Notes under the pieces: model-generated | The model's database searches: none | What the model saw: the letters and a program-made list of their open reading frames with translations, nothing else | What the model was told of the DNA's origin: nothing | Shown here: positions 9,527 to 55,998 of the stretch, one piece after another | Layout of the letters: each line of letters begins with the position of its first letter | Numbering within the stretch: position 1 is the first letter of the stretch | Assembly (NCBI GenBank): GCA_965206645.1 | Contig: CBDBKE010000004.1 | Location: 2,144,001 to 2,208,000 of the forward strand | Reading direction: 5' to 3' | Origin: Terriglobia bacterium | GTDB lineage: Bacteria; Acidobacteriota; Terriglobia; JAJPHL01; JAPKYU01 | DNA length: 64,000 nucleotides | Program-made: the position numbers and the translations under genes

Positions 9527-9841
9527 ATGCCCGAGGATGTATTCTCTGGAGCACGCAGAGATCAAGAAAAGTACTTCTACGAGCGAGACCGAGAATTGGT
9601 TGAGAAGCTGCGCTCGAAAGCCGAAGCCGAGCGGCGCGAGTTGGAGCGTAAGCATCGAAAGGAAACCCACTGGATGAAGTGCCCCAAGTGCGGCCACGAC
9701 TTGGAAGAGACCGAGATGGGGCCGTTGTTGGTGGACAAGTGCAAAGACTGCGGTGGCGTCTTCTTCGATGCCGGCGAGCTGGACATGTTACTAGCCGCCG
9801 AGAAGGAAGGCTCCATTCTTCGCCGAATCTTCCGGCGCTAG
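9527..9841 (+). CDS. zf-TFIIB-type zinc-ribbon protein
   Basis: MKCPKC ... VDKCKDCGGVFFDAGEL; AAGGAG RBS. Confidence 0.85.
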   Translation: MPEDVFSGARRDQEKYFYERDRELVEKLRSKAEAERRELERKHRKETHWMKCPKCGHDLEETEMGPLLVDKCKDCGGVFFDAGELDMLLAAEKEGSILRRIFRR

Positions 9842-9844
9842 TAG

Positions 9845-9937
9845 CAGGTGTCAGGTTGCAGTTCTCCTGAGGTTTAAGTCTCCCTCACCGTGTCTCTTTG
9901 CGGCAATCCTGACACCTGAAACCTGACGCCTGAGACC
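9845..9937. repeat. Heptamer (CCTGANR) STRR/REP-like element
   Basis: CAGGTGTCAGG (9845-9855) is inverted with CCTGACACCTG (9908-9918); tandem CCTGACA CCTGAAA CCTGACG CCTGAGA. Confidence 0.65.
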
Positions 9938-9943
9938 TTGCTC

Positions 9944-11593
9944 ATGCCCACTCCTTGGACGCAGGTTTATTACCCCTGGGGGCCGGGGTTGTGGCCCCTG
10001 TCAACGTTGGCGGCCGTGCTGCCGGTGCTGGTGCTGTTCACCTTCCTGCTGAAACATGCCCGGCCGCACATCGCCGCCATCGCCGGCGCGCTGACGGCCC
10101 TGCTTTGCTCAATCGCGCTGTTTGGGATGCCGGCGCCGCTGGCGCTGGCATCCTTCAGCTTTGGCGGCGCCTTCGGTCTGCTGCGCATCTGCTGGATCGT
10201 GCTGAATGCCGTGTTCCTCTACGACATTACGGTGGCCAGCGGGCAGTTCGACGTCATGCGCGCTTCGGTGGGCTCCATCTCCGCCGACCGGCGGCTCCAG
10301 GCGCTGCTGATAGCCTTCAGCTTCGGGGCGTTCATCGAGGGCGCCGCTGGCTTCGGCGCTCCTGTAGCCATTTCGGCGGCGATGATGGCCGGTCTGGGGT
10401 TCAACCCGTTTAAGGCGGCGGCCCTGTGCCTGATCGCCAACACCGCGCCGGTGGCTTTCGGCGCCCTGGGCACCCCGGTCCACACGCTGGCGCTGGTGAG
10501 CGGGCTGAACGAGAGCGACCTGTCGGCCATGAACGCGCGCATTCTGCCGCTGGTTTCCCCCATCGTCGCCTTCTGGCTGGTGCGCGCTATGGTGCCCTGG
10601 AAGCAAACCTTCCAGGTGTTGCCCGGCATCCTGGTCACCGGCCTCAGCTTCGGGGTCGTGCAGTTCTACTGGGGTAACTATCAGGACAGCAACCTGGTGG
10701 ACATCATGGCCGGAATTGCGGCGCTGCTGGCCACCGTCGTCTTTCTCCGCTTCTGGCAGCCCAAGGAAATCTGGCGCTTCCCGGAGGAACGCGGAACGGC
10801 CGTGGTCGGCCACGACTACACCCGCAAGCAGGTGCTGAGGGCCTGGATGCCCTTCGCCATCCTGACTCTTTTCGTGCTTCTGTGGGGTTTCATCCAGCGC
10901 CCGCTGGACAGCTACACACGAATTGACTTTCAGTTTCCCGTGCTGCACAACGCCGTGTGGCGGGACGCGCCGGCGGTGCCGGAAAAAACGCCGGAGGCGG
11001 CCGTCTACCGGTTTGCCTGGCTGTCGGCCACCGGCACGGCGGCTTTCTTCTCGGCCGTTTTATCCGGGCTGCTGCTGGGGATGAGCCCGCGGCGCATCTT
11101 CCAAATTTTTGGGCACACGGTCTACCGCATGCGCTTTGCCCTCACGGCCATCTTCTTCATGCTGGGACTGGCCTACGTGACCCGTTACTCCGGCATGGAT
11201 GTCGTGCTGGGCCTGGCCTTCACCCGCACCGGCGCGGTCTACCCGTTCTTCGCTGCCTTCCTGGGGTGGCTGGGCGTGGCGCTGACAGGCAGCGACACCT
11301 CCTCCAATGCCTTGTTCGGCAGCCTGCAGCGGATCACCGCCGAGCAGCTCAGCTTGGACCCCATCCTGATTGCCTCAGCCAACAGCACCGGTGGAGTGAT
11401 GGGCAAGATGATTGACGCGCAGAGCATTGTGGTGGCGGCGGCGGCCACCAACATCGTCGGGCGGGAGGGAGAGCTGCTGCGCTACGTCTTCTGGACCAGC
11501 GTGGCGCTGGTCTCCGTGGTCGGCGTCATCATCCTGCTTTACGCATACGTGTTTCCGCAGTTCGTCCCCCACGGCCTCACCTTCATGCAGTAG
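9944..11593 (+). CDS. lctP: L-lactate permease (LctP/LldP family)
   Basis: FIEGAAGFGAPVA, NTAPVAFGALGTP, LTGSDTSSNALFG and GGVMGKMI motifs; many TM helices. Confidence 0.92.
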   Translation: MPTPWTQVYYPWGPGLWPLSTLAAVLPVLVLFTFLLKHARPHIAAIAGALTALLCSIALFGMPAPLALASFSFGGAFGLLRICWIVLNAVFLYDITVASGQFDVMRASVGSISADRRLQALLIAFSFGAFIEGAAGFGAPVAISAAMMAGLGFNPFKAAALCLIANTAPVAFGALGTPVHTLALVSGLNESDLSAMNARILPLVSPIVAFWLVRAMVPWKQTFQVLPGILVTGLSFGVVQFYWGNYQDSNLVDIMAGIAALLATVVFLRFWQPKEIWRFPEERGTAVVGHDYTRKQVLRAWMPFAILTLFVLLWGFIQRPLDSYTRIDFQFPVLHNAVWRDAPAVPEKTPEAAVYRFAWLSATGTAAFFSAVLSGLLLGMSPRRIFQIFGHTVYRMRFALTAIFFMLGLAYVTRYSGMDVVLGLAFTRTGAVYPFFAAFLGWLGVALTGSDTSSNALFGSLQRITAEQLSLDPILIASANSTGGVMGKMIDAQSIVVAAAATNIVGREGELLRYVFWTSVALVSVVGVIILLYAYVFPQFVPHGLTFMQ

Positions 11594-49494: not shown

Positions 49495-49640
49495 ATCTCA
49501 CTGGGGGGCTCGGCAGAATCTTCCACAAGACCTCAGCTGTAAGGACTCAACCTGGCGAACGCTGGCACGTGGACGCTTGCTGGACTAAGGAGCGAAAACA
49601 TATAATCGAACCGCACTGAGGCGCCCGTCCAGGATGGACC

Positions 49641-49916
49641 ATGAGTTCCACAAGCGGGAGTCGACTTCCGCGCAAACCCACCGAAGCTGAGATTCGAGAA
49701 GAAAGCCGGAAAACACGGCGGCTCCAGTTCCTGGTGCACCTGGTGATGAGCGTGATCAGCCAGAGCCAGCACATGCCCATCGAGGAGGCTTCGTCGATGG
49801 TGGCGGCCACCAAGCGGGCGGCCCTGACCATGTTTCCGGACAAGGAATTTGCTTTCGACCTGATTTACAAGCCCCGCCTTCAAAGACTGCTCACCGAAAA
49901 ATACAGGATTCAATAA
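49641..49916 (+). CDS. Hypothetical protein
   Basis: 91-aa ORF with host codon bias; TATAAT upstream at 49601. Confidence 0.7.
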   Translation: MSSTSGSRLPRKPTEAEIREESRKTRRLQFLVHLVMSVISQSQHMPIEEASSMVAATKRAALTMFPDKEFAFDLIYKPRLQRLLTEKYRIQ

Positions 49917-49969
49917 CACTGCGGTTTGGCATCCGGTAAGGATGTCAGCGGAGCGAGATCGCCTTTAGG

Positions 49970-49997
49970 TGGCGGAGAGGGAGGGATTCGAACCCTC
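49970..49997 (-). mobile_element. tRNA-Ser 3'-end fragment (att-site-like island boundary), not a complete tRNA
   Basis: Minus strand GAGGGTTCGAATCCCTCCCTCTCCGCCA is a T-arm plus 3' acceptor strand plus GCCA; no D-arm or anticodon arm upstream. Confidence 0.75.
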
Positions 49998-50200
49998 ACT
50001 GTTTTCTGGAGCTACCTAAGTTACTGCTTTTCCCATGGGGCGAACGAGGCAAAGGGAGCGAAAAGCGGTATCTGGGGCATACAAAAGCGAACCTCATCAC
50101 TTGCGTCATCACCGAGACAACCGACGCCGTCCGGCCTTGCCAAGCGGGCTATCATTAAACTGGTGCGGTCCTACTTCCTGGGGCGTTCCTCCTGATAAGC

Positions 50201-50234
50201 ATAGGTAAACACTGACCGACTAGTGGGGACCTAT
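50201..50234 (+). repeat. 34-bp inverted-arm site, copy A
   Basis: ATAGGTAAACACTG-ACCGAC-TAGTGGGGACCTAT. Confidence 0.85.
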
Positions 50235-50369
50235 CTGCCAAGTCTGAACTAACTCTTTCCGTTTCAGAGAATTACTGCAGCCCGAGAAAGTATCAAGAGC
50301 GCGGGAGATAGACCAGACCGGTCATAGGAGTGGTCGTATGTGGCTATAATCACTGCCTTGAGGAGTTCC

Positions 50370-51006
50370 ATGCGGTCCCTCTTGAACGAGCTGCTTTTAG
50401 CGGCCGTGTTTTCCCTCATGTGTCTTCCGGCTTTGGGCCAGTTTGCCCAACCTGCTTACTCGCGGTTGGACGCGCAGGGCACCCTTCCTGCGGGGTGCGT
50501 TGACGCACCCATTGTGTACGACACACCGGGCCGCCGGTTATTTGATGTTCGGCGGGCAGGATGCCGCCAGCCCGCGCAATGACCTTTGGGAGTATTCCTT
50601 CGATCGTCGAGAGTGGACCGAGTTGAATCCATCGGGGACCTTGCCTCCAGCTCGTTTTGGACATACCACAGTCTTTGATCCTGTTCGCCGTCGCCTGGTC
50701 TTATTTGGGGGCCAGGCCGCGGGGTTTTTCAGCGACGTTTGGGCATACGATATCGCTCAGAACACGTGGCAACAGCTTAGCCCCGACGAGGCCGGTCCGA
50801 ACCGCCGGTATGGTCATTCGGCGATTTACGATGCTGCGAGAGATCGCCTTATCATCTCGCACGGGTTTACGACCGCCGGCCGATTCGATGACACTTGGGC
50901 CTATGAGCTGGGGACAAACACTTGGCGGGAGATCTCGTCTTCCGGCATCAGGCCACTCCCTCGCTGCTTACACCACTCGGTTTACGACGAAGGAAACGGA
51001 CAAATG
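50370..51006 (+). pseudogene. Secreted Kelch-repeat protein, frameshifted and 3'-truncated
   Basis: Signal peptide MRSLLNELLLAAVFSL; frameshift near 50540-50545; Kelch blades (MFGG..NDLW, PARFGH, LFGG..SDVW, RYGH); the sequence breaks after EGNGQM. Confidence 0.7.
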
Positions 51007-51349
51007 TTGGATGGCGTCCAATTTGGCGACCGATTCACAGGACTTCCAAAACAACCGTGAAAGACTCATCGAGATCGGCTACCACGGAGGCCCAGGCAAC
51101 GAACGGCGGCTCCTGTTTCTGTCCTACAGCCTAGACGTGTTGAATTGGTTTCCGGCCGGATGCATCGCCATGTGGCCCAGTCCTCTGCAGGCATTCATGT
51201 ATCCATGCGTAGCGGTGGATGGGGACGACCTCGTGCTTATTTCTCGCACGTCGAAGGACGCTCAGAATCAGCACGACGCCGACCTGGTCACGTTCCACCG
51301 GATTCAGGACTTCCGGTCTTTGGCTCTGAACCTCCGTCCGGAGATCTAA
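51007..51349 (+). pseudogene. C-terminal fragment of an unrelated (sialidase/propeller-like) gene joined to the Kelch remnant
   Basis: In a different frame: NERRLLFLSYSLDVLNWFPAG...DGDDLVLISRTS..NQHDADLVTFHRIQDFR; has no start of its own. Confidence 0.5.
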
Positions 51350-51610
51350 GCACAGAGCGCAACTCAAGGCTGCACCCCACCAGCACACGAGGGCAAGGGT
51401 GGTCAGGGCGGGCGGATTGCCGATACGGTGATTTGGAGTAAGCCGCCCTGCCGATTTGGCAGGGCTAACCCTGTCGCCTGCCGCCGACAGAGCTACGCCA
51501 ACCAGATCGCTGCTCAACCTGCCAGTCAAGCCACAGCGCCTCGCCGAGCTCGCCATGCTGTTCACGACTTTCGGGCTGGCGAGATTGAGCCTCCTCACCA
51601 GCAATGCCGG

Positions 51611-51644
51611 ATAGGTCTACACTAACGGACTAGTGGTTACCTAT
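51611..51644 (+). repeat. 34-bp inverted-arm site, copy B
   Basis: ATAGGTCTACACTA-ACGGAC-TAGTGGTTACCTAT. Confidence 0.85.
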
Positions 51645-51766
51645 GATCCACAGTGAATGGCGGTCGTAGCATGGTGATTTCGGGCGAAACCATCGCAGAG
51701 CGTTGCTCGGCCAAATTTACGCGGCCCTGCGGGTACGTAGAGGGCGGTACAGCAGGAGGGTAGGAA

Positions 51767-51922
51767 TCCACCGCCGACGACCACCACGTCGAACTCGTGT
51801 GTCTCTTTCCTCGGTCTTACGCATGCCACCGTCGCGACCGCCGGACGCGATTCAACTGGCACGGCGGGCACTGCCGCGGAAACAGCTAGCCCTCCGAGGA
51901 ACCTACGACGGGAAACGCTCAC
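51767..51922 (-). pseudogene. N-terminal remnant of a Tat-exported FAD-dependent oxidoreductase
   Basis: AAAGGAG RBS, GTG start, SRRRFL Tat motif, then the Rossmann start FDVVVVGGG, after which similarity stops. Confidence 0.6.
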
Positions 51923-51968
51923 GGCATACTCCTTTGCCCACGGATTCCGATCATTGTGTCTGGAGAGC

Positions 51969-52733
51969 TTACTGAGCCGTGTACCCGCCATCCACCATGA
52001 GCGGCGTGGCGGTAATAAAGGAAGCCTCCTCAGAGGCGAGGAAGAGAATGGCATTCGCCACTTCGCGAGGATCGCCCATGCGCTTGATCAAATGTAGCGG
52101 TTTATTCAGTTCCACCACCTGTTCCTTGGTCAGTCCCTTACTGGCGGCATCGAGCATTATGGCGGGGGTATCTATAGCTCCCGGGCAGACGCAATTCACG
52201 CGAATGTTATCCGGCGCGAGATCGAAGGCCAGGCATCGTGTCATCTGCAGCACCGCCCCTTTGCTGGTATTGTAGGGGACAAAAGCAGGCTGGGCGATGA
52301 ATGAGCTAATGGAGCCCAAGTTTACGATGGACCCGCCTCCGCGCTTTCGCATGTGGGGGACAGCGTACTTGGAACAGAACGCGTACCCTTTGACGTTCAC
52401 GTTCAGGACCCGGTCCCAATCCTGCTCGCTGGCCTCTTCCACTGTTCCGAAAACAAAGGCCGCAGCGTTGTTCACCAGGATATCCGGGCCACCCAGTTCG
52501 CGGGCTGCGGTGTTCATCAGCTCCCGCACTTCGGACTCGATGGAGATATCGGTCTTGTGAAAAAAGGTCCTACCGCCGGCAGCTTTGATCTGGGCCACAG
52601 TCTCCTCGCCGCCGCGGACGTCCAGGTCCGCTACACAAACAGCAGCGCCCTCCTCGGCAAAACGAATTGCCGTAGCCCGGCCAATTCCCGAACTCGAACC
52701 GGTAACCACCGCCACTTTGTTCGCTAGACGCAT
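51969..52733 (-). CDS. Short-chain dehydrogenase/reductase
   Basis: TGSSSGIG, NNAA, YNTSK and PGAIDT motifs; GGAGGAG RBS. Confidence 0.93.
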   Translation of the reverse strand: MRLANKVAVVTGSSSGIGRATAIRFAEEGAAVCVADLDVRGGEETVAQIKAAGGRTFFHKTDISIESEVRELMNTAARELGGPDILVNNAAAFVFGTVEEASEQDWDRVLNVNVKGYAFCSKYAVPHMRKRGGGSIVNLGSISSFIAQPAFVPYNTSKGAVLQMTRCLAFDLAPDNIRVNCVCPGAIDTPAIMLDAASKGLTKEQVVELNKPLHLIKRMGDPREVANAILFLASEEASFITATPLMVDGGYTAQ

Positions 52734-52787
52734 GTTCTCCTCCTTAGCTCATTTCACCTGCAGCTTTCAGAACTTCTGCCTCAAAAC

Positions 52788-52821
52788 ATGAGTAAACACT
52801 AACGGGCTAGCGTTTACCAAT
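52788..52821 (+). repeat. 34-bp inverted-arm site, copy C (more degenerate)
   Basis: ATGAGTAAACACTA-ACGGGC-TAGCGTTTACCAAT. Confidence 0.75.
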
Positions 52822-52857
52822 GTTCTGCCTGGATGGTATGGCGTTCCTTAGTTAAGG

Positions 52858-52891
52858 ATAGGTAAACACTAACCGACAAGTGGAAACCTAT
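52858..52891 (+). repeat. 34-bp inverted-arm site, copy D
   Basis: ATAGGTAAACACTA-ACCGAC-AAGTGGAAACCTAT; its flanks are homologous to those of copy A. Confidence 0.85.
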
Positions 52892-52998
52892 CTGCCAAGT
52901 CGGAGCCAACTCTTGCCGTATTAGGAAGGCCGCCGCTGATCACCGAGGGACAGATCGTGGCTGAAACCGCGTTCTGAGTGTGAGGGGAAAGAGAACTC

Positions 52999-53832
52999 TC
53001 ACGGGTCACGGCGTTTCGGTGGGGCAGCTGACACGCCTTCTAAGCCTCCACTGACTCTGAGCACCTCGCCCGTGATCCAAGAGGCTGCCGGACTGCACAG
53101 AAAAGCAACGCTCCGTGCGATATCGGCTGGCTCTCCCCATCGCCCCAGCGGGATAGCGCTGCGAATGCGCTCAATCATCTGATCCTCGGTGAGATTCAGG
53201 GTTTGGCAGCGCTGCGCCATGATGGTCTTGTTAAATTCCGTACAGACAGGACCCGGACTCACGGCGTTTACCCGCACGCCGTAGGCGGCAAGCTCCAGTG
53301 CCAGCGTCTTGGTCAGACTGATCACACCGGCCTTGGCCACGTTGTAGGCCGCGACCAGCGCTGCTGGATTCTGGCCGTTGATGGAGACAATATTGACGAT
53401 ACACCCGGATCCCTGCCGCTCCATGATTCGTGCTGCGGCGCGGCAACAATAGAACGTTCCGGTCAAGGTGACACCTGGGACGCGTGCCCATTCCTGGTCT
53501 GTCAGATGGACGACCGGGGCGACGTCTTGTCCAACACCGGCATTGTTGACCAGAATGTCCAACCGACCGTATTCAGCAACTGTCCTGTCGAAGAACTCGG
53601 TCACCCCACTACTAGCGGAGATATCCAAACGGGCTGGCTGCACATTCAGACCTTGCTCCCGCAACTTTTGGGCCGATGCCTGTGCATTTTCCAGTCTGAT
53701 GTCACCCATGATCACCCCGGCGCCGTCGCAGGCAAGCTGCTCAGCGATCCCCAAGCCCAGCCCCTGGGCCGCTCCGGTCACCACCGCAACTAAGCCATCC
53801 AGCCTATGCAAAGAAGTCGTACCTTCACTCAT
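52999..53832 (-). CDS. Short-chain dehydrogenase/reductase (FabG-like)
   Basis: TGAAQGLG, NNAG, YNVAK and PLGRWGEP motifs. Confidence 0.92.
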   Translation of the reverse strand: MSEGTTSLHRLDGLVAVVTGAAQGLGLGIAEQLACDGAGVIMGDIRLENAQASAQKLREQGLNVQPARLDISASSGVTEFFDRTVAEYGRLDILVNNAGVGQDVAPVVHLTDQEWARVPGVTLTGTFYCCRAAARIMERQGSGCIVNIVSINGQNPAALVAAYNVAKAGVISLTKTLALELAAYGVRVNAVSPGPVCTEFNKTIMAQRCQTLNLTEDQMIERIRSAIPLGRWGEPADIARSVAFLCSPAASWITGEVLRVSGGLEGVSAAPPKRRDP

Positions 53833-53941
53833 GAACGAACTCCCTTGATGACTTATCCCCGTCCAGCAAAACTACAGAGTCGGCCACAGTTACCACATGA
53901 CCGATCCGGCCAATGGGCGTCAAGGTCTTACTCATTGGGTT

Positions 53942-54253
53942 TCATGGGCGGTCTCGGAGCGGCATTAACTCTCGGCATTTGGTAACGAAAGCATCAAGAT
54001 TATCAGGGACGAATCTAATGCGCGGTGGCCAACCTCGCCTCCGGACGTACACGTGTGGATGGAACGTGGCCCAATCGTTATTGTACGACCACCAAGTCTC
54101 AATCGGGCGACGGAAAGCATCGGCAGCCACCGGCTTGGGACGTACGCCGATCTCGATGATCTTGTCGAATGGAATCTTGATCGTGTGGAAAAGAATCCGT
54201 GCTTCCAGCTCAATTCGGTCGCGGTAGATACGATACTCTTGACGCCAACTGAG
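53942..54253 (-). pseudogene. Hypothetical gene 5'-truncated by IS1380
   Basis: Coding part LSWRQEYRIYRDRIEL...FVPDNLDAF; the ORF's N-terminal 40 codons run through the IS left end. Confidence 0.55.
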
Positions 54254-55911
54254 CCCGGATTTCCGTTTTGAAACTCCAAAGCTAACCTTATACTGACCTC
54301 CGACGCCAATATTTATGCCGGTTCCAGCGTCAATACAGCTTCCGGAGGTAGAAACCGAGTGGGTGAGAGGCAAAATCAGCCCTTTCAGTTCTCTTTCAAT
54401 GCTGCATTGAAGGTCGATTTCCAGGGGTCGCGGGTTACTTCCGACGGCGGCCTGATCCTCGTGCGCGAATCAGACGAACATTTGGGATTCGGAGAACTCA
54501 TCAAACAGCACTTGGCCGATCCTCGGAGAAAGAACACACGGTTGCCCTTTGCTGACCTCCTGCGCCAGTCCGTGTACAGCCGCTTGGCGGGTTACGAAGA
54601 TATGAATGACGCGGAACGGCTCTCTCAAGATCCGACGTTCCGGCTGATCGGTTCAGAAAAGATCTGGGAGCGAGGAGCCGCGTTGACTTCCCGGCTGCAA
54701 TCGTTCGAGACAGAACTACTGACGCAAGATGAGAACCTGGCTGGTTTGGCAGCGATCAACCGGGATTTAATCGCCAGGGCGGAAGCTATGGATTCCCCGC
54801 AACGGGTGGTGCTGGACATGGACTCGACCGAGATTCCGGTCTACGGCCAGCAGGAGCAGAGTGCCTACAACGGGCATTTCGAGTCGAGCTGCTATCACCC
54901 GTTGTTGCTGTTCAATCGCGAGGGTGACTGTCTGGCGGCCAAGCTGCGACCGGGCAACGTGCACAGCGCCGAGGACTGGAAAGAACTTCTCCTGCCGGAG
55001 ATCGAGCGGCAGCAGCAGCTGGGCAAGGAAGTGGTGTTTCGTGCCGACGCGGCCTTTGCCAAGCCGGAGATTTACGAGGCTCTGGAGGAGCGGGAGGTAA
55101 AGTACGCCATCCGCATCCCGGCTAACGACAGCCTACAGCGGGACATTGAGGAGTTGCTGACTCGGCCGGTGGGGAGACCCAGCAAGAAGCCGTTGGTGGA
55201 GTTCAAGGGCTTTCTATACCAAGCGGCCAGTTGGAAGACAGCCCGCAGGGTGGTGGCCAAGGTGGAGCATCATCCAGGGGAGCTGTTCCCGCGAGTAGGG
55301 TTTATCGTTACGAACTTGACTCTGCCAAGTCGGGCGGTGATGCGGTTTTACAACAAGCGGGGGACAGCGGAGCAGTGGATCAAAGAAGGAGAGCAAGCAG
55401 TGAAGATGACGCGGCTCAGTTGTCACCGGTTCCGGTCGAACGAGGTCCGGCTGTGGCTCACCATCATTGCCTATAATCTCGGCAACCTGTGGCGGCGACT
55501 GGTGCTGCCACAGAGAATCGGGAACTGGTCCCTGACGAGCTTGCAACAGCGGTTGGTGAAAACGGGAGGACGGCTGGTGAAACATGCGCGATATTACTGG
55601 CTTTTGCTGGCCGAAGGGCACTTGAGCCGGAGGCTGTTCAGCAGCATGCTGCGAACGATCTCGGCACTGCCGCTGCCAGACGGCTAGCGAACCGGGAGAG
55701 AGGGTAATTTTAGGTGCTCAGAAGTGGTCGGGCCGGATAAGTGTCAGCGGCGCGGCAGGCTGGGCAGGCGAACCCCGCACAGCGACTCCGAAGAACAGCC
55801 AAAATGTGCCGCACTACCACCTCAAAGAGGCCAGAGCTGTTTGCGGTTGACACGACAGGGTACGAGGCATAGCTTTTCGGGTGAAGAGGAAGCTCAAAAT
55901 GGAAATTCCGG
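54254..55911 (+). mobile_element. IS1380-family insertion sequence
   Basis: Terminal IRs CCCGGATTTCCGTTTTGA (54254-54271) and TCAAAATGGAAATTCCGG (55894-55911), 15/18 match, flanking a single transposase. Confidence 0.88.
54359..55687 (+). CDS. IS1380-family DDE transposase
   Basis: TSDGG, GYED.ND, LDMDST..YG.QE, LRPGN, RADAAF and YNKRGTAEQWIKE motifs. Confidence 0.93.
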   Translation: MGERQNQPFQFSFNAALKVDFQGSRVTSDGGLILVRESDEHLGFGELIKQHLADPRRKNTRLPFADLLRQSVYSRLAGYEDMNDAERLSQDPTFRLIGSEKIWERGAALTSRLQSFETELLTQDENLAGLAAINRDLIARAEAMDSPQRVVLDMDSTEIPVYGQQEQSAYNGHFESSCYHPLLLFNREGDCLAAKLRPGNVHSAEDWKELLLPEIERQQQLGKEVVFRADAAFAKPEIYEALEEREVKYAIRIPANDSLQRDIEELLTRPVGRPSKKPLVEFKGFLYQAASWKTARRVVAKVEHHPGELFPRVGFIVTNLTLPSRAVMRFYNKRGTAEQWIKEGEQAVKMTRLSCHRFRSNEVRLWLTIIAYNLGNLWRRLVLPQRIGNWSLTSLQQRLVKTGGRLVKHARYYWLLLAEGHLSRRLFSSMLRTISALPLPDG

Positions 55912-55998
55912 CTCAAACACTACCGGAACTTGGGCGAAGAGGTTCACAGGACTGACTACCAACAAACACAAGCAAGAAAAAACCGCTGCTCGAAGCAT
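55912..55998 (-). pseudogene. 5' end of a secreted-protein gene interrupted by IS1380
   Basis: ATG 55998 gives MLRAAVFSCLCLLVVSPVNLFAQVPVVFE (signal-peptide-like), running into the IS right IR. Confidence 0.5.

What the first reader, a model, noticed from the sequence alone, without database searches (positions are those of the whole stretch)
50180..52925. Four direct-orientation 34-bp loxP/dif-like sites dividing an island into cassettes: candidate undescribed site-specific gene-capture system
Seen: four copies at 50201, 51611, 52788 and 52858. Each has 14-bp imperfect inverted arms (ATAGGTAAACACTA / TAGTGKTTACCTAT) around a 6-bp asymmetric spacer, all in the same orientation (A and D ACCGAC, B ACGGAC, C ACGGGC). 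A and D also share flanks: upstream GGCGTTCCT-n-TAAG and downstream CTGCCAAGTCnGAnCnAACTCTTnCCGT, giving ~90-bp extended sites with possible accessory-protein boxes. The intervals hold unrelated cargo: A-B Kelch/propeller remnants, B-C a Tat-oxidoreductase remnant plus an SDR, C-D only 36 bp, and another SDR after D. Established: inverted arms around a 6-8 bp asymmetric core is the geometry of tyrosine-recombinase sites (loxP 13-8-13, dif 11-6-11), but this sequence resembles neither XerC/D dif nor integron attC. Inference: an integron-like or pdif-like module array served in trans by a recombinase encoded elsewhere. Site B lies at convergent 3' ends, which argues against a simple transcription-factor operator.
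Basis: partly seen in the sequence, partly recalled or inferred. Interest (0 to 1): 0.85.

Follow-up and report, generated by a model that had tools for sequence, protein, structure and literature searches.

The report
Cassette-end palindromes of IS1-type mobile cassettes
The four 34-base palindromes are copies of a repeat that marks the left and right ends of dozens of transposase-less gene cassettes in one uncultured Terriglobia genus; some cassettes demonstrably hop inside IS1-type transposon arms, but what acts on the palindrome itself is still unknown.

Summary
In detail: four 34-bp sites (14-6-14) lie at 50201, 51611, 52788 and 52858. They are not local. This 4.4-Mb genome holds 77 copies, and the repeat was found only in the same genus.

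The copies fall into two polar forms:
- T1, left end, spacer ACCGAC, 38 copies.
- T2, right end, arms swapped, spacer ACGGGC, 35 copies.

On one strand, 14 T1->T2 neighbour pairs enclose 0.6-13 kb of unrelated genes. Seven of the 10 T2->T1 pairs are 59-278-bp junctions.

About a third of the cassettes sit inside ~55-bp inverted arms. The arm tips (GGTAGTG) match IS1-family elements of the same genome. These cassettes have 8-10-bp target duplications, a precise empty site in a sister species and a changed locus in another. They are therefore mobile insertion cassettes.

The window's four sites lack such arms. The 34-mer is a sharp joint between interchangeable inner and outer modules, with no duplication next to it. 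Its grammar resembles Acinetobacter dif modules. No recombinase, circle or excision product was found.

I rate this a new variant of a known kind, interest about 0.6.

The parts
49970..49997 (-). 28-nt piece that looks like the 3' end of a tRNA (my reading), in the 265-bp stretch between the conserved flank and site A
   Evidence: Read. Identical 28-mers occur at two other genome places. ARAGORN calls no tRNA here. Homology to G002 and G003 stops at about 49918-49936.
50182..50200 (+). Short outer (context-side) motif that precedes left-end sites lacking IS1-type arms
   Evidence: Shared by A and D and by other arm-less T1 sites.
50201..50234 (+). Site A: left-end form T1 (arm A, spacer ACCGAC, arm B')
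   Evidence: Orthologous copy in G001 at L014:6209.
50235..50305 (+). Inner module that follows T1 in many cassettes
   Evidence: 37 of 40 bases identical to the module after the T1 at G000:C2:436151, while the upstream 40 bases drop to 14 of 40. Cluster 'a'.
50340..51349 (+). Cargo: deletion-fused remnants of a Kelch gene and a BNR-like gene
   Evidence: ORFs. G001 has the intact 585-aa Kelch and 439-aa BNR-like genes. The window lacks 2.2 kb at 51007-51009.
51611..51644 (+). Site B: intermediate 34-mer (spacer ACGGAC) with right-end (T2) flanks
   Evidence: The stretch 51422-51916, which holds it, is absent from G001.
51641..52054 (-). N-terminal remnant of a possible Tat-exported oxidoreductase, cut at site B
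   Evidence: TAT_signal scores 19.2 bits, below the 22.7 cut-off.
51969..52733 (-). Cargo: short-chain dehydrogenase
   Evidence: PF13561, 225 bits.
52788..52821 (+). Site C: unique chimera (arm A, spacer ACGGGC, arm A') with a left-end-type upstream flank and a right-end-type downstream flank
   Evidence: It is the only A/A' site in four genomes apart from its G001 ortholog.
52822..52857 (+). 36-bp junction block between a right-end site and the next left-end site
   Evidence: The same kind of 59-70-bp start-to-start junction occurs at four places in this genome.
52858..52891 (+). Site D: left-end form T1
   Evidence: Ortholog in G001 at L014:12060.
52892..52924 (+). Inner module after D, the same kind as after A
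   Evidence: repeat family D2. Cluster 'a'.
52999..53832 (-). Cargo of the next cassette: second short-chain dehydrogenase
   Evidence: PF13561, 209 bits.
54249..55913 (+). IS1380-like insertion sequence (transposase ORF 54359-55687) that cuts the cassette array in this genome
   Evidence: PF13701, 393 bits. Homology to G001 stops at 54253. The rest of the array lies inverted at G000:C4:1925941-1929780.

Best explanation
This is a two-layer mobile system.

Layer 1, shown as structure. The 34-mers are the end marks of transposase-less gene cassettes. A left form, T1 (arm A, spacer ACCGAC, arm B'), and a right form, T2 (arm B, spacer ACGGGC, arm A'), bracket unrelated cargo. Tandem cassettes are separated by short T2-junction-T1 blocks. 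In the window, A and D are T1. B is a right end by its flanks. C is a T1/T2 chimera that looks like an unoccupied site.

Layer 2, shown. In roughly a third of cases the cassette lies inside ~55-bp inverted arms whose tips (GGTAGTG, which fits GGnnnTG) are those of IS1-family elements in the same genome. These units insert with 8-10-bp target duplications. They are mobile insertion cassettes, presumably moved in trans by IS1-family DDE transposases.

Inferred. The 34-mer is not the transposase's end. IS1-type elements with the same tips exist without it, and it exists without the arms. I take it to be an independent joint at which inner (cargo) and outer (vehicle or context) modules are re-assorted. 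Most likely it is a recombination site for an enzyme encoded elsewhere, working like dif modules or heterospecific lox sites. The window's arm-less array would owe its make-up to that layer. An IS1380-like element later split the array.
For: Family and polarity
- 77 copies in this genome: 38 A-s1-B', 35 B-s2-A' and 4 odd ones.
- Neighbour statistics on one strand: 14 T1->T2 pairs spaced 611-13347 bp, and 10 T2->T1 pairs, 7 of them 59-278 bp.
- Cargo is ordinary and unrelated: Kelch, BNR, SDR, cupin, TPR, Ser/Thr kinase, HbpS-like, beta-propeller. The only transposases inside are nested ISs.

Transposition of arm-bearing cassettes
- Precise empty site in G003, with the 10-bp CCGCGCTTGG duplicated in this genome.
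- CGCCCGTCGG occurs three times in a row around an IS1-family element and the adjoining cassette.
- The same cassette lies at a different locus in G003, with homology starting at the arm tip.
- The tip lies 56-72 bp from 12 of 38 T1 sites and 50-81 bp from at least 9 of 35 T2 sites.
- IS1-family transposases score 35.3, 30.5 and 26.5 bits on PF03400 (cut-off 24.1), and IS1 is their best NCBIfam hit.
- IS1-family ends of GGnnnTG and direct repeats of 8-9 bp come from passages of PMC10425158 Table 8 and the PMC6807381 Discussion.

The 34-mer as an independent joint
- Four tip-bounded elements have no 34-mer, and the autonomous IS1-type loci have none.
- Upstream and downstream modules assort combinatorially.
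- In 5 of 6 pairs, similarity falls from 31-37 of 40 to 8-14 of 40 exactly at the edge of the 34-mer.
- 14 of 14 cassettes have a 0-1-nt duplication abutting the 34-mers.
- Each cargo block has inversely armed sites, as described for dif modules (PMC13141974 passages).
Against: - No recombinase is tied to the sites. Five of 36 integrase matches lie within 5 kb of a site, against about 6 expected by my arithmetic.
- The one complete serine recombinase is not found in G001 or G002.
- Only one A/A' site and no B/B' site exist in four genomes. If cassettes were excised or integrated at the 34-mer, such products should be commoner.
- T1 and T2 spacers differ at 2 of 6 positions. That would block a simple T1 x T2 exchange by a tyrosine recombinase (established knowledge, recalled).
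- Contigs of four public runs gave no circle or excision joint. The joints seen are cross-matches between repeat copies.
- Arm variants partly travel together: a distinct subgroup has both arms changed and linked to one inner module.
- Alternation is not strict. There are 4 T1->T1 neighbour pairs (after re-reading B as a right end) and 2 T2->T2 pairs.
- For the window's own array no target duplication, arm or clean empty site was found. G002 has 92 bp of other sequence there.
Confidence: 0.5

Rival explanations
1. One layer only. The 34-mers are simply a subterminal part of the ~100-bp inverted ends of an IS1-derived MITE/MIC family, for example extra transposase- or host-factor-binding sites. 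Arm-less copies such as the window's are decayed or rearranged elements. Module shuffling comes from homologous recombination and palindrome-provoked rearrangement among about 80 repeats.
For: - T2 is closer to the reverse complement of T1 (29 of 34) than to T1 itself (25 of 34). This is my count on the consensus sequences, and it is what terminal inverted repeats look like.
- In arm-bearing cassettes the sites sit at a fixed distance from the tips.
- Both arms of the 34-mer share a TAGTG core with the IS1-type tips (my comparison).
- All mobility actually shown is of this kind.
- Recombinant site forms are nearly absent.
- In G002 a remnant of an IS1-type tip abuts the right border of the window's array locus.
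Against: - Tip-bounded elements and autonomous IS1-type elements work without the 34-mer.
- The 34-mer occurs with at least four different outer contexts.
- Loss of both arms exactly at the outer edges of the 34-mers in many independent cassettes is unlikely.
- The spacers are conserved within each class but are not reverse complements of each other.
Confidence: 0.3
2. REP/BIME-like extragenic palindromes spread by a RAYT (Y1 transposase).
For: These are 34-bp imperfect palindromes. Inverted doublets are separated by short linkers. Two Y1_Tnp genes exist in the genome.
Against: - The Y1_Tnp genes are not flanked by the sites. The nearest copies are about 9 kb and 33 kb away.
- Gene-sized blocks lie between T1 and T2 in a fixed polarity.
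- Target duplications and inverted arms occur at complete members.
- Support for a hairpin under selection is weak: most arm changes are one-sided and break pairs.
Confidence: 0.03
3. Operator sites of a dimeric transcription factor.
For: The sequence is palindromic and conserved. Some copies lie upstream of genes.
Against: - Copies lie at both ends of blocks whose genes face either way.
- Site B lies between convergent 3' ends.
- The sites lie inside mobile-element ends.
- The half-sites are hetero-typed in 73 of 77 copies.
Confidence: 0.03
4. An integron-type array with attC sites.
For: Cassette arrays of promoter-poor genes are bounded by imperfect palindromes.
Against: - No integrase sits next to any array. 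The nearest is 3.2 kb from one cluster.
- Cargo faces both ways.
- Each cassette has two different end sites, not one.
- Copies are dispersed over the genome.
- Rfam gave no match. An attC model was not available to run.
Confidence: 0.02

Closest known systems
Mobile insertion cassettes (MICs) and transporter ISs, as defined by ISfinder/ISsaga
   Same: These are passenger genes without a transposase, lying between inverted ends related to an IS present in the genome, flanked by target duplications, presumably moved in trans. Definition from passages of PMC3129680. Structure here.
   Different: About 35 cassettes per genome carry mostly different cargo. There is an extra conserved hetero-armed 34-bp palindrome inside each end. 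Many members, including the window's, lack the IS-type arms. Tandem arrays also occur. MIC231 of Bacillus is recalled from memory, not read.
IS1 family insertion sequences
   Same: The transposases hit PF03400 above its cut-off. The ends fit GGnnnTG and the duplications are 8-10 bp, against ends of GGnnnTG and direct repeats of 8-9 bp in PMC10425158 Table 8.
   Different: The transposases are divergent, scoring 54-87 bits where the NCBIfam equivalog cut-off is 100. The elements are 3.3-3.5 kb and carry an XRE/M78 passenger gene. Duplications of up to 10 bp occur.
dif modules (pdif sites) of Acinetobacter plasmids
   Same: Sites are made of two different half-sites, which gives them polarity. 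Every module is surrounded by inversely oriented sites, and two module types alternate. Modules are shuffled between contexts. No enzyme is encoded within. From passages of PMC13141974; here.
   Different: The site is 34 bp (14-6-14), not 28 bp. Left and right sites carry different, conserved spacers. One module type is only a 25-117-bp junction. The setting is chromosomal. Similarity to the host dif was not tested. Xer involvement is wholly unshown.
Integron gene cassettes (attC)
   Same: Arrays of promoter-poor cassettes are bounded by imperfect palindromes and served in trans.
   Different: There are two distinct end sites per cassette. No adjacent integrase or attI is present, cargo faces both ways, and copies are dispersed. 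attC features are recalled from memory; no model was run.
Heterospecific lox/FRT pairs used for recombinase-mediated cassette exchange
   Same: Two sites with the same arms but incompatible spacers flank a cassette. That layout would allow exchange but not excision or inversion.
   Different: This is a laboratory design recalled from memory, not a natural family. No recombinase is known here.
REP/BIME/REPIN elements
   Same: Dispersed 20-40-bp palindromes, often in inverted doublets (start of the PMC3733652 abstract seen in the listing).
   Different: See the rival explanation: no RAYT association, and the sites bracket gene-sized polar blocks.

Membership tests
Mobile insertion cassette (IS-derived, non-autonomous) | Inverted ends related to those of an IS present in the genome | tested here: met
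   Met for 12 of 38 T1 and at least 9 of 35 T2 sites. Their tip equals that of the IS1-type element at G000:C2:14857-19500 over 15 of 15 bases. NOT met for the window's four sites: no tip in their flanks.
Mobile insertion cassette (IS-derived, non-autonomous) | Target-site duplication of the length made by that IS family | tested here: met
   A 10-bp duplication with an empty site in G003. The same 10-mer occurs three times around an IS1-type element plus a cassette. Of 5 arm-bearing cassettes, 3 are clear and 2 ambiguous (my reading). For the window array none was found.
Mobile insertion cassette (IS-derived, non-autonomous) | Passenger genes and no transposase of its own | tested here: met
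   The only transposases inside are separately bounded nested ISs.
Mobile insertion cassette (IS-derived, non-autonomous) | Mobilised in trans by the cognate transposase | not testable with these tools
   Needs a transposition assay. A changed locus between species is shown.
IS1 family (the transposases held to drive layer 2) | DDE_Tnp_IS1 domain | tested here: met
   PF03400 scores 35.3, 30.5 and 26.5 bits against a cut-off of 24.1.
IS1 family (the transposases held to drive layer 2) | NCBIfam equivalog score for an IS1 family transposase | tested here: not met
   NF033558 is the best hit, but at 73.2, 54.1 and 86.7 bits against a cut-off of 100. These are divergent relatives.
IS1 family (the transposases held to drive layer 2) | Ends GGnnnTG and direct repeats of 8-9 bp | tested here: met
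   Ends read GGTAGTG and GGTGCTG, with repeats of 8-10 bp. Reference values are from PMC10425158 Table 8 and the PMC6807381 Discussion.
Core site of a tyrosine recombinase (loxP/dif type) | Inverted binding arms around a 6-8-bp asymmetric spacer | tested here: met
   14-6-14 geometry in 77 copies.
Core site of a tyrosine recombinase (loxP/dif type) | Recombination products (hybrid sites, circles) exist | tested here: inconclusive
   One chimera, site C. No B/B' site. No circle joint in contigs, which cannot show rare forms.
Core site of a tyrosine recombinase (loxP/dif type) | A cognate recombinase | tested here: inconclusive
   36 integrase matches, none enriched near the sites (arithmetic mine). 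One clade was found in 3 of 3 congeners and 0 of 3 other genera, but at only 47-49% identity.
dif modules | Each module flanked by inversely oriented hetero-armed sites, with two module types alternating | tested here: met
   There are 6 exceptions: 4 T1->T1 and 2 T2->T2 neighbour pairs.
dif modules | Sites resemble the host's chromosomal dif and are bound by XerC/XerD | not tested
   The host dif site is unknown to me, and a dif consensus from memory may not be typed. XerC/D-like genes exist: the two best PF00589 hits.
Integron | intI with attI next to the array, and attC with R''/L''/L'/R' boxes | tested here: not met
   No integrase adjacent to any array. The attC boxes were judged by eye only; no model was run.
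REP/RAYT | RAYT gene flanked by the repeats | tested here: not met
   Two Y1_Tnp genes lie about 9 kb and 33 kb from the nearest copy.

The most novel reading that the evidence does not exclude
The 34-mers are the sites of an undescribed chromosomal cassette-exchange system. T1 and T2 would be heterospecific recombination sites: the same two half-site types in swapped order, with incompatible spacers. A recombinase encoded elsewhere (Xer-like or genus-specific) could then swap whole cassettes between any two sites without excising or inverting them. IS1-type arms serve as vehicles that spread loaded docking sites around the genome. This would be a natural counterpart of dif modules or recombinase-mediated cassette exchange coupled to a transposon, as integrons are coupled to Tn402.
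Probability: 0.25. Interest if true: 0.9.

Novelty: new variant of a known kind. Interest (0 to 1): 0.6.

Why it matters
Mobile insertion cassettes are usually curiosities with one or a few cargoes. Here a single repeat family brackets some 35 different gene sets per genome in an uncultured Terriglobia genus. Its DNA also turns up in sponge, vent and sediment metagenome runs.

It could therefore be a main route by which these bacteria shuffle accessory genes for secreted proteins, kinases and oxidoreductases.

It also offers a concrete, testable case for an open question: how transposase-less cassettes acquire and exchange cargo. The conserved hetero-armed palindrome is exactly the kind of joint a dedicated exchange mechanism would need.

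If the palindrome proves to be a recombination site, this would be a second natural system with the grammar of dif modules, in a distant phylum and on chromosomes.

Tried and rejected
Searches that found nothing or were uninformative
- Rfam at a permissive threshold over 49500-54500 gave only two chance-level hits. ARAGORN found no tRNA in 40000-64000.
- Hairpin covariation in the arms: mostly one-sided, pair-breaking changes. This gives no good support for a selected RNA or ssDNA hairpin.
- Public runs: only contigs were available. The joints between sites B and C, or C and A, have short sides (20-34 nt) and extra letters. I read them as other copies of the repeat, not excision products. There is no evidence either way on circles.
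- Metagenome scan with the T1 core: 5 stretches, of which only 1 (a 1-kb contig) holds a real site.
- Plasmid collection, two queries: no match.

Enzyme candidates that failed
- Ends of the three abundant ISs (1162-bp repeat, IS256-like, IS1380-like) do not resemble the 34-mer arms.
- An IS256-type transposase inside one tip-bounded element is a separate nested IS with 9 near-identical copies.
- The serine recombinase near an IS1-type element is not found in G001 or G002.
- The integrase beside tRNA-Pro near C2:532478 is an ordinary tRNA-adjacent integrase.

Other tests and limits
- Half-site search: only two extra truncated sites. Breakpoints at spacer edges are too few to count as evidence.
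- Several sister-genome comparisons gave rearranged, not clean, empty sites.
- The attL/attR reading (A/A' docking site plus B/B' circle) is weakened.
- Literature: 'ISMhu11' gave 0 papers. Searches for MIC and passenger genes, GGnnnTG, Acidobacteria plus MITE, and pdif showed nothing on this repeat. I did not search further, and supplements were not opened.
- Of the papers, I saw only search listings and the quoted passages, never whole texts.

Full report
CHECK OF THE OBSERVATION. A and D also share 72 nt of flanks at 85% identity. Chance is excluded. There were no matches in 100 shuffles, and a reversed control pattern found nothing in 41 genomes, while the true pattern hit 25 times in this genome. 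The cargo calls hold for the two SDRs. The 'Kelch/propeller remnants' are a deletion-fused Kelch gene and BNR-like gene that are intact in the sister genome G001. The Tat signal is below Pfam's cut-off.

THE SITES ARE A GENOME-WIDE, GENUS-RESTRICTED REPEAT. The window is G000:C4:2144001-2208000. A scan of the 4.4-Mb genome finds 77 copies at up to 10 mismatches to either of two consensus forms.
- The T2 core occurs in all three other genomes of the genus (20, 4 and 16 hits). It occurs once in one other genus of the family and in none of the remaining 36 of 41 genomes searched.
- The T1 core gives 19, 4 and 23 hits in the congeners.
- Across one genome per species of 185,579 species, the only 9 stretches come from two MAGs of this genus, labelled Terriglobia bacterium.
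- JGI metagenomes gave one real site in 5 stretches. Plasmids gave none.

TWO POLAR FORMS. The copies sort as follows:
- 38 have arm A (middle AAAC), spacer ACCGAC and arm B' (middle GGGG). I call these T1.
- 35 have arm B (CCCC), spacer ACGGGC and arm A' (GTTT). I call these T2.
- Only four are odd. Window site C is A-ACGGGC-A'. Window site B and two others carry ACGGAC.

In the window, A and D are T1. B has the conserved flanks of a T2. Among neighbours within 15 kb on one strand there are 14 T1->T2 pairs, spaced 611-13347 bp. There are 10 T2->T1 pairs, of which 7 are only 59-278 bp apart. So T1 opens and T2 closes a gene-sized block, and T2-junction-T1 links tandem blocks. The exceptions are 5 T1->T1 pairs (one is A->B, which I read as T1->T2) and 2 T2->T2 pairs.

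CARGO. The blocks share almost nothing but their ends. They carry ordinary genes facing either way: Kelch, BNR, two SDRs, cupin, TPR, a Ser/Thr kinase, HbpS-like, a beta-propeller and unknown secreted proteins. No recombinase or transposase belongs to them. The transposases seen inside are separately bounded nested ISs.

WHAT IS SHOWN TO MOVE. Upstream of 12 of 38 T1 sites and downstream of at least 9 of 35 T2 sites lies a ~55-bp arm. The two arms are inverted repeats of each other and end in a tip that begins GGTAGTG. Three lines show that these units transpose.
- The unit G000:C2:~192560-195446 (L018 6568-9445) is exactly absent from G003. G003 has a single 10-mer, CCGCGCTTGG, which is duplicated on either side of the unit here.
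- At G000:C3 the 10-mer CGCCCGTCGG occurs three times in a row: before an IS1-family element, between that element and an arm-bearing cassette, and after the cassette.
- The cassette at G000:C4:792230-793818 lies at another locus in G003 at 89% identity. Homology begins at the arm tip.

The same tips bound IS1-family elements. One is 3.45 kb with a 347-aa transposase and an 8-bp duplication. One is 3.3 kb with a 324-aa transposase. One has a 285-aa transposase. One, broken by nested ISs, has a tip identical to the cassette arms over 15 bases. The transposases pass Pfam's IS1 model. IS1 is their best NCBIfam family, though below the equivalog cut-off. IS1-family ends of GGnnnTG and repeats of 8-9 bp are as tabulated in PMC10425158 and noted in PMC6807381 (passages). 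Arm-bearing cassettes are therefore mobile insertion cassettes in the sense of ISfinder/ISsaga (passages of PMC3129680).

THE 34-MER IS SOMETHING ELSE. Four elements with the same tips have no 34-mer, and the autonomous IS1-type loci have none. Conversely, the 34-mer occurs with at least four kinds of outer flank, including the window's, which has no arm.
- De novo clustering of flanks shows that outer and inner modules assort combinatorially around both T1 and T2.
- In 5 of 6 pairs that share the cargo-side module at 31-37 of 40 bases, similarity drops to 8-14 of 40 exactly at the outer edge of the 34-mer. The sixth pair is out of register by one base.
- No target duplication abuts the 34-mers: 0-1 nt in 14 of 14 cassettes.

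The 34-mer is thus a sharp joint between interchangeable modules, not a transposon tip. Two features match the grammar described for Acinetobacter dif modules (passages of PMC13141974). Its two different half-sites give it polarity. Every cargo block is flanked by inversely armed sites that alternate with small junction blocks. The distinct, conserved spacers of T1 and T2 recall heterospecific lox pairs (recalled from memory). Such pairs would permit exchange but not excision.

WHAT SPEAKS AGAINST A RECOMBINASE SITE.
- No enzyme was found. Five of 36 integrase matches lie within 5 kb of a site, about the number expected by chance (my arithmetic).
- The two Y1 transposases are 9 kb and 33 kb from the nearest copy.
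- The one complete serine recombinase is missing from G001 and G002.
- One integrase clade is found in 3 of 3 congeners and 0 of 3 other genera, but only at 47-49% identity. That is a lead, no more.
- Product-like sites are almost absent: one A/A' site (site C and its G001 ortholog) and no B/B' site in four genomes.
- Contigs of four public runs show only cross-matches between repeat copies.
- Arm covariation is weak.
- Truncated sites are too few to place breakpoints. One T2 in G003 is cut in its spacer.

THE WINDOW LOCUS. G001 is 96-97% identical across this locus. Its array reads A - Kelch, BNR, an IS256-type insertion, SDR - C, 36 bp, D - SDR2 and small ORFs - T2, junction, T1 - cupin - T2.
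- This genome lacks 2.2 kb inside the Kelch/BNR genes. It has 494 bp more around site B.
- Here the array is cut at 54253 by an IS1380-like element. The remainder lies inverted at G000:C4:1925941-1929780.
- G002 and G003 lack the whole array. In G002, 92 bp of other sequence, including a remnant of an IS1-type tip, sits between the flanks. The right border is 7 bp beyond the last T2.
- The left border is 265 bp before A and includes a tRNA-like 28-mer.
- Site C has a left-end-type upstream flank, arm A, the T2 spacer, arm A' and a right-end-type downstream flank. It looks like an unoccupied docking site or an excision scar, but it is the only one.

VERDICT. The sites are trans-served boundaries of variable gene cassettes with a dif-module-like grammar. 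But the system is a dispersed repeat family whose demonstrated mobility is IS1-type transposition, not an island-specific integron.

I commit to a two-layer model at confidence 0.5: IS1-type vehicles (shown) plus an independent joint at the 34-mer (inferred, enzyme unknown). The main rival, at 0.3, is that the 34-mer is merely a subterminal part of the transposon ends. I file it as a new variant of a known kind, with interest 0.6. The boldest reading not excluded is a natural cassette-exchange system, at probability 0.25.

Noticed in passing
window 54249-55913: IS1380-like IS (442-aa transposase; PF13701, 393 bits). It has about 25 copies at ~85% identity in G003 and several here. It marks a synteny break: the right flank (RNase R) lies 750 kb from the left flank in G001 and 341 kb away in G003.
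   Followed up: partly
window 49970-49997: A 28-nt tRNA-like 3' fragment on the minus strand, just inside the variable region. It is identical to two other genome places. In public runs its depth is about 100-fold above its neighbours, so it is a widely shared sequence.
   Followed up: partly
G000:C1:267439-268600 and about 40 other places: A 1162-bp repeat at 99% identity in about 40 copies. Its ends are asymmetric, and one end is a GC-rich hairpin. It looks like an IS without inverted ends. I did not identify it.
   Followed up: no
G000, ten places, e.g. C2:496583-496634 and C4:2128440-2128491: Right arm tip, 10 bp, left arm tip, with nearly the same 10-bp spacer in about 10 copies, with or without 34-mers beside them. 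Independent tandem insertions would give different spacers, so this abutted-ends unit is itself copied. Unexplained.
   Followed up: partly
G000:C4:1596643-1600091 and G000:C3:191073-194347: Both complete IS1-family elements carry, next to the transposase, a passenger gene that fuses an XRE-type HTH to an M78 (ImmA/IrrE-like) peptidase.
   Followed up: partly
L057 (G003:C1:969401-971700), about 1770-1795: The right-end site of a cassette in G003 is cut within its spacer and joined to DNA from an unrelated locus. The same G003 insertion site is occupied in this genome (G000:C1:52448) by a cassette with different cargo.
   Followed up: partly
L014 (G001:C10:166001-186000) 9781-11221: An IS256-type IS (439-aa transposase, PF00872) is inserted in G001 at the 3' end of the SDR gene, with an 8-bp duplication corresponding to window 52019-52026. 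Nine near-identical copies exist in this genome.
   Followed up: partly
G000:C4:2131715-2132461: A tyrosine recombinase lies 3.2 kb from a cluster of sites. Relatives at 47-49% identity were found in 3 of 3 congeners and 0 of 3 other genera of the family, though those genomes are only 71-94% complete.
   Followed up: partly
G000:C1:261000-269000 and G000:C4:317-8314: An 8-kb stretch, including one cassette, is present twice at 100% identity at or near contig ends. This is either a real duplication or an assembly repeat.
   Followed up: no
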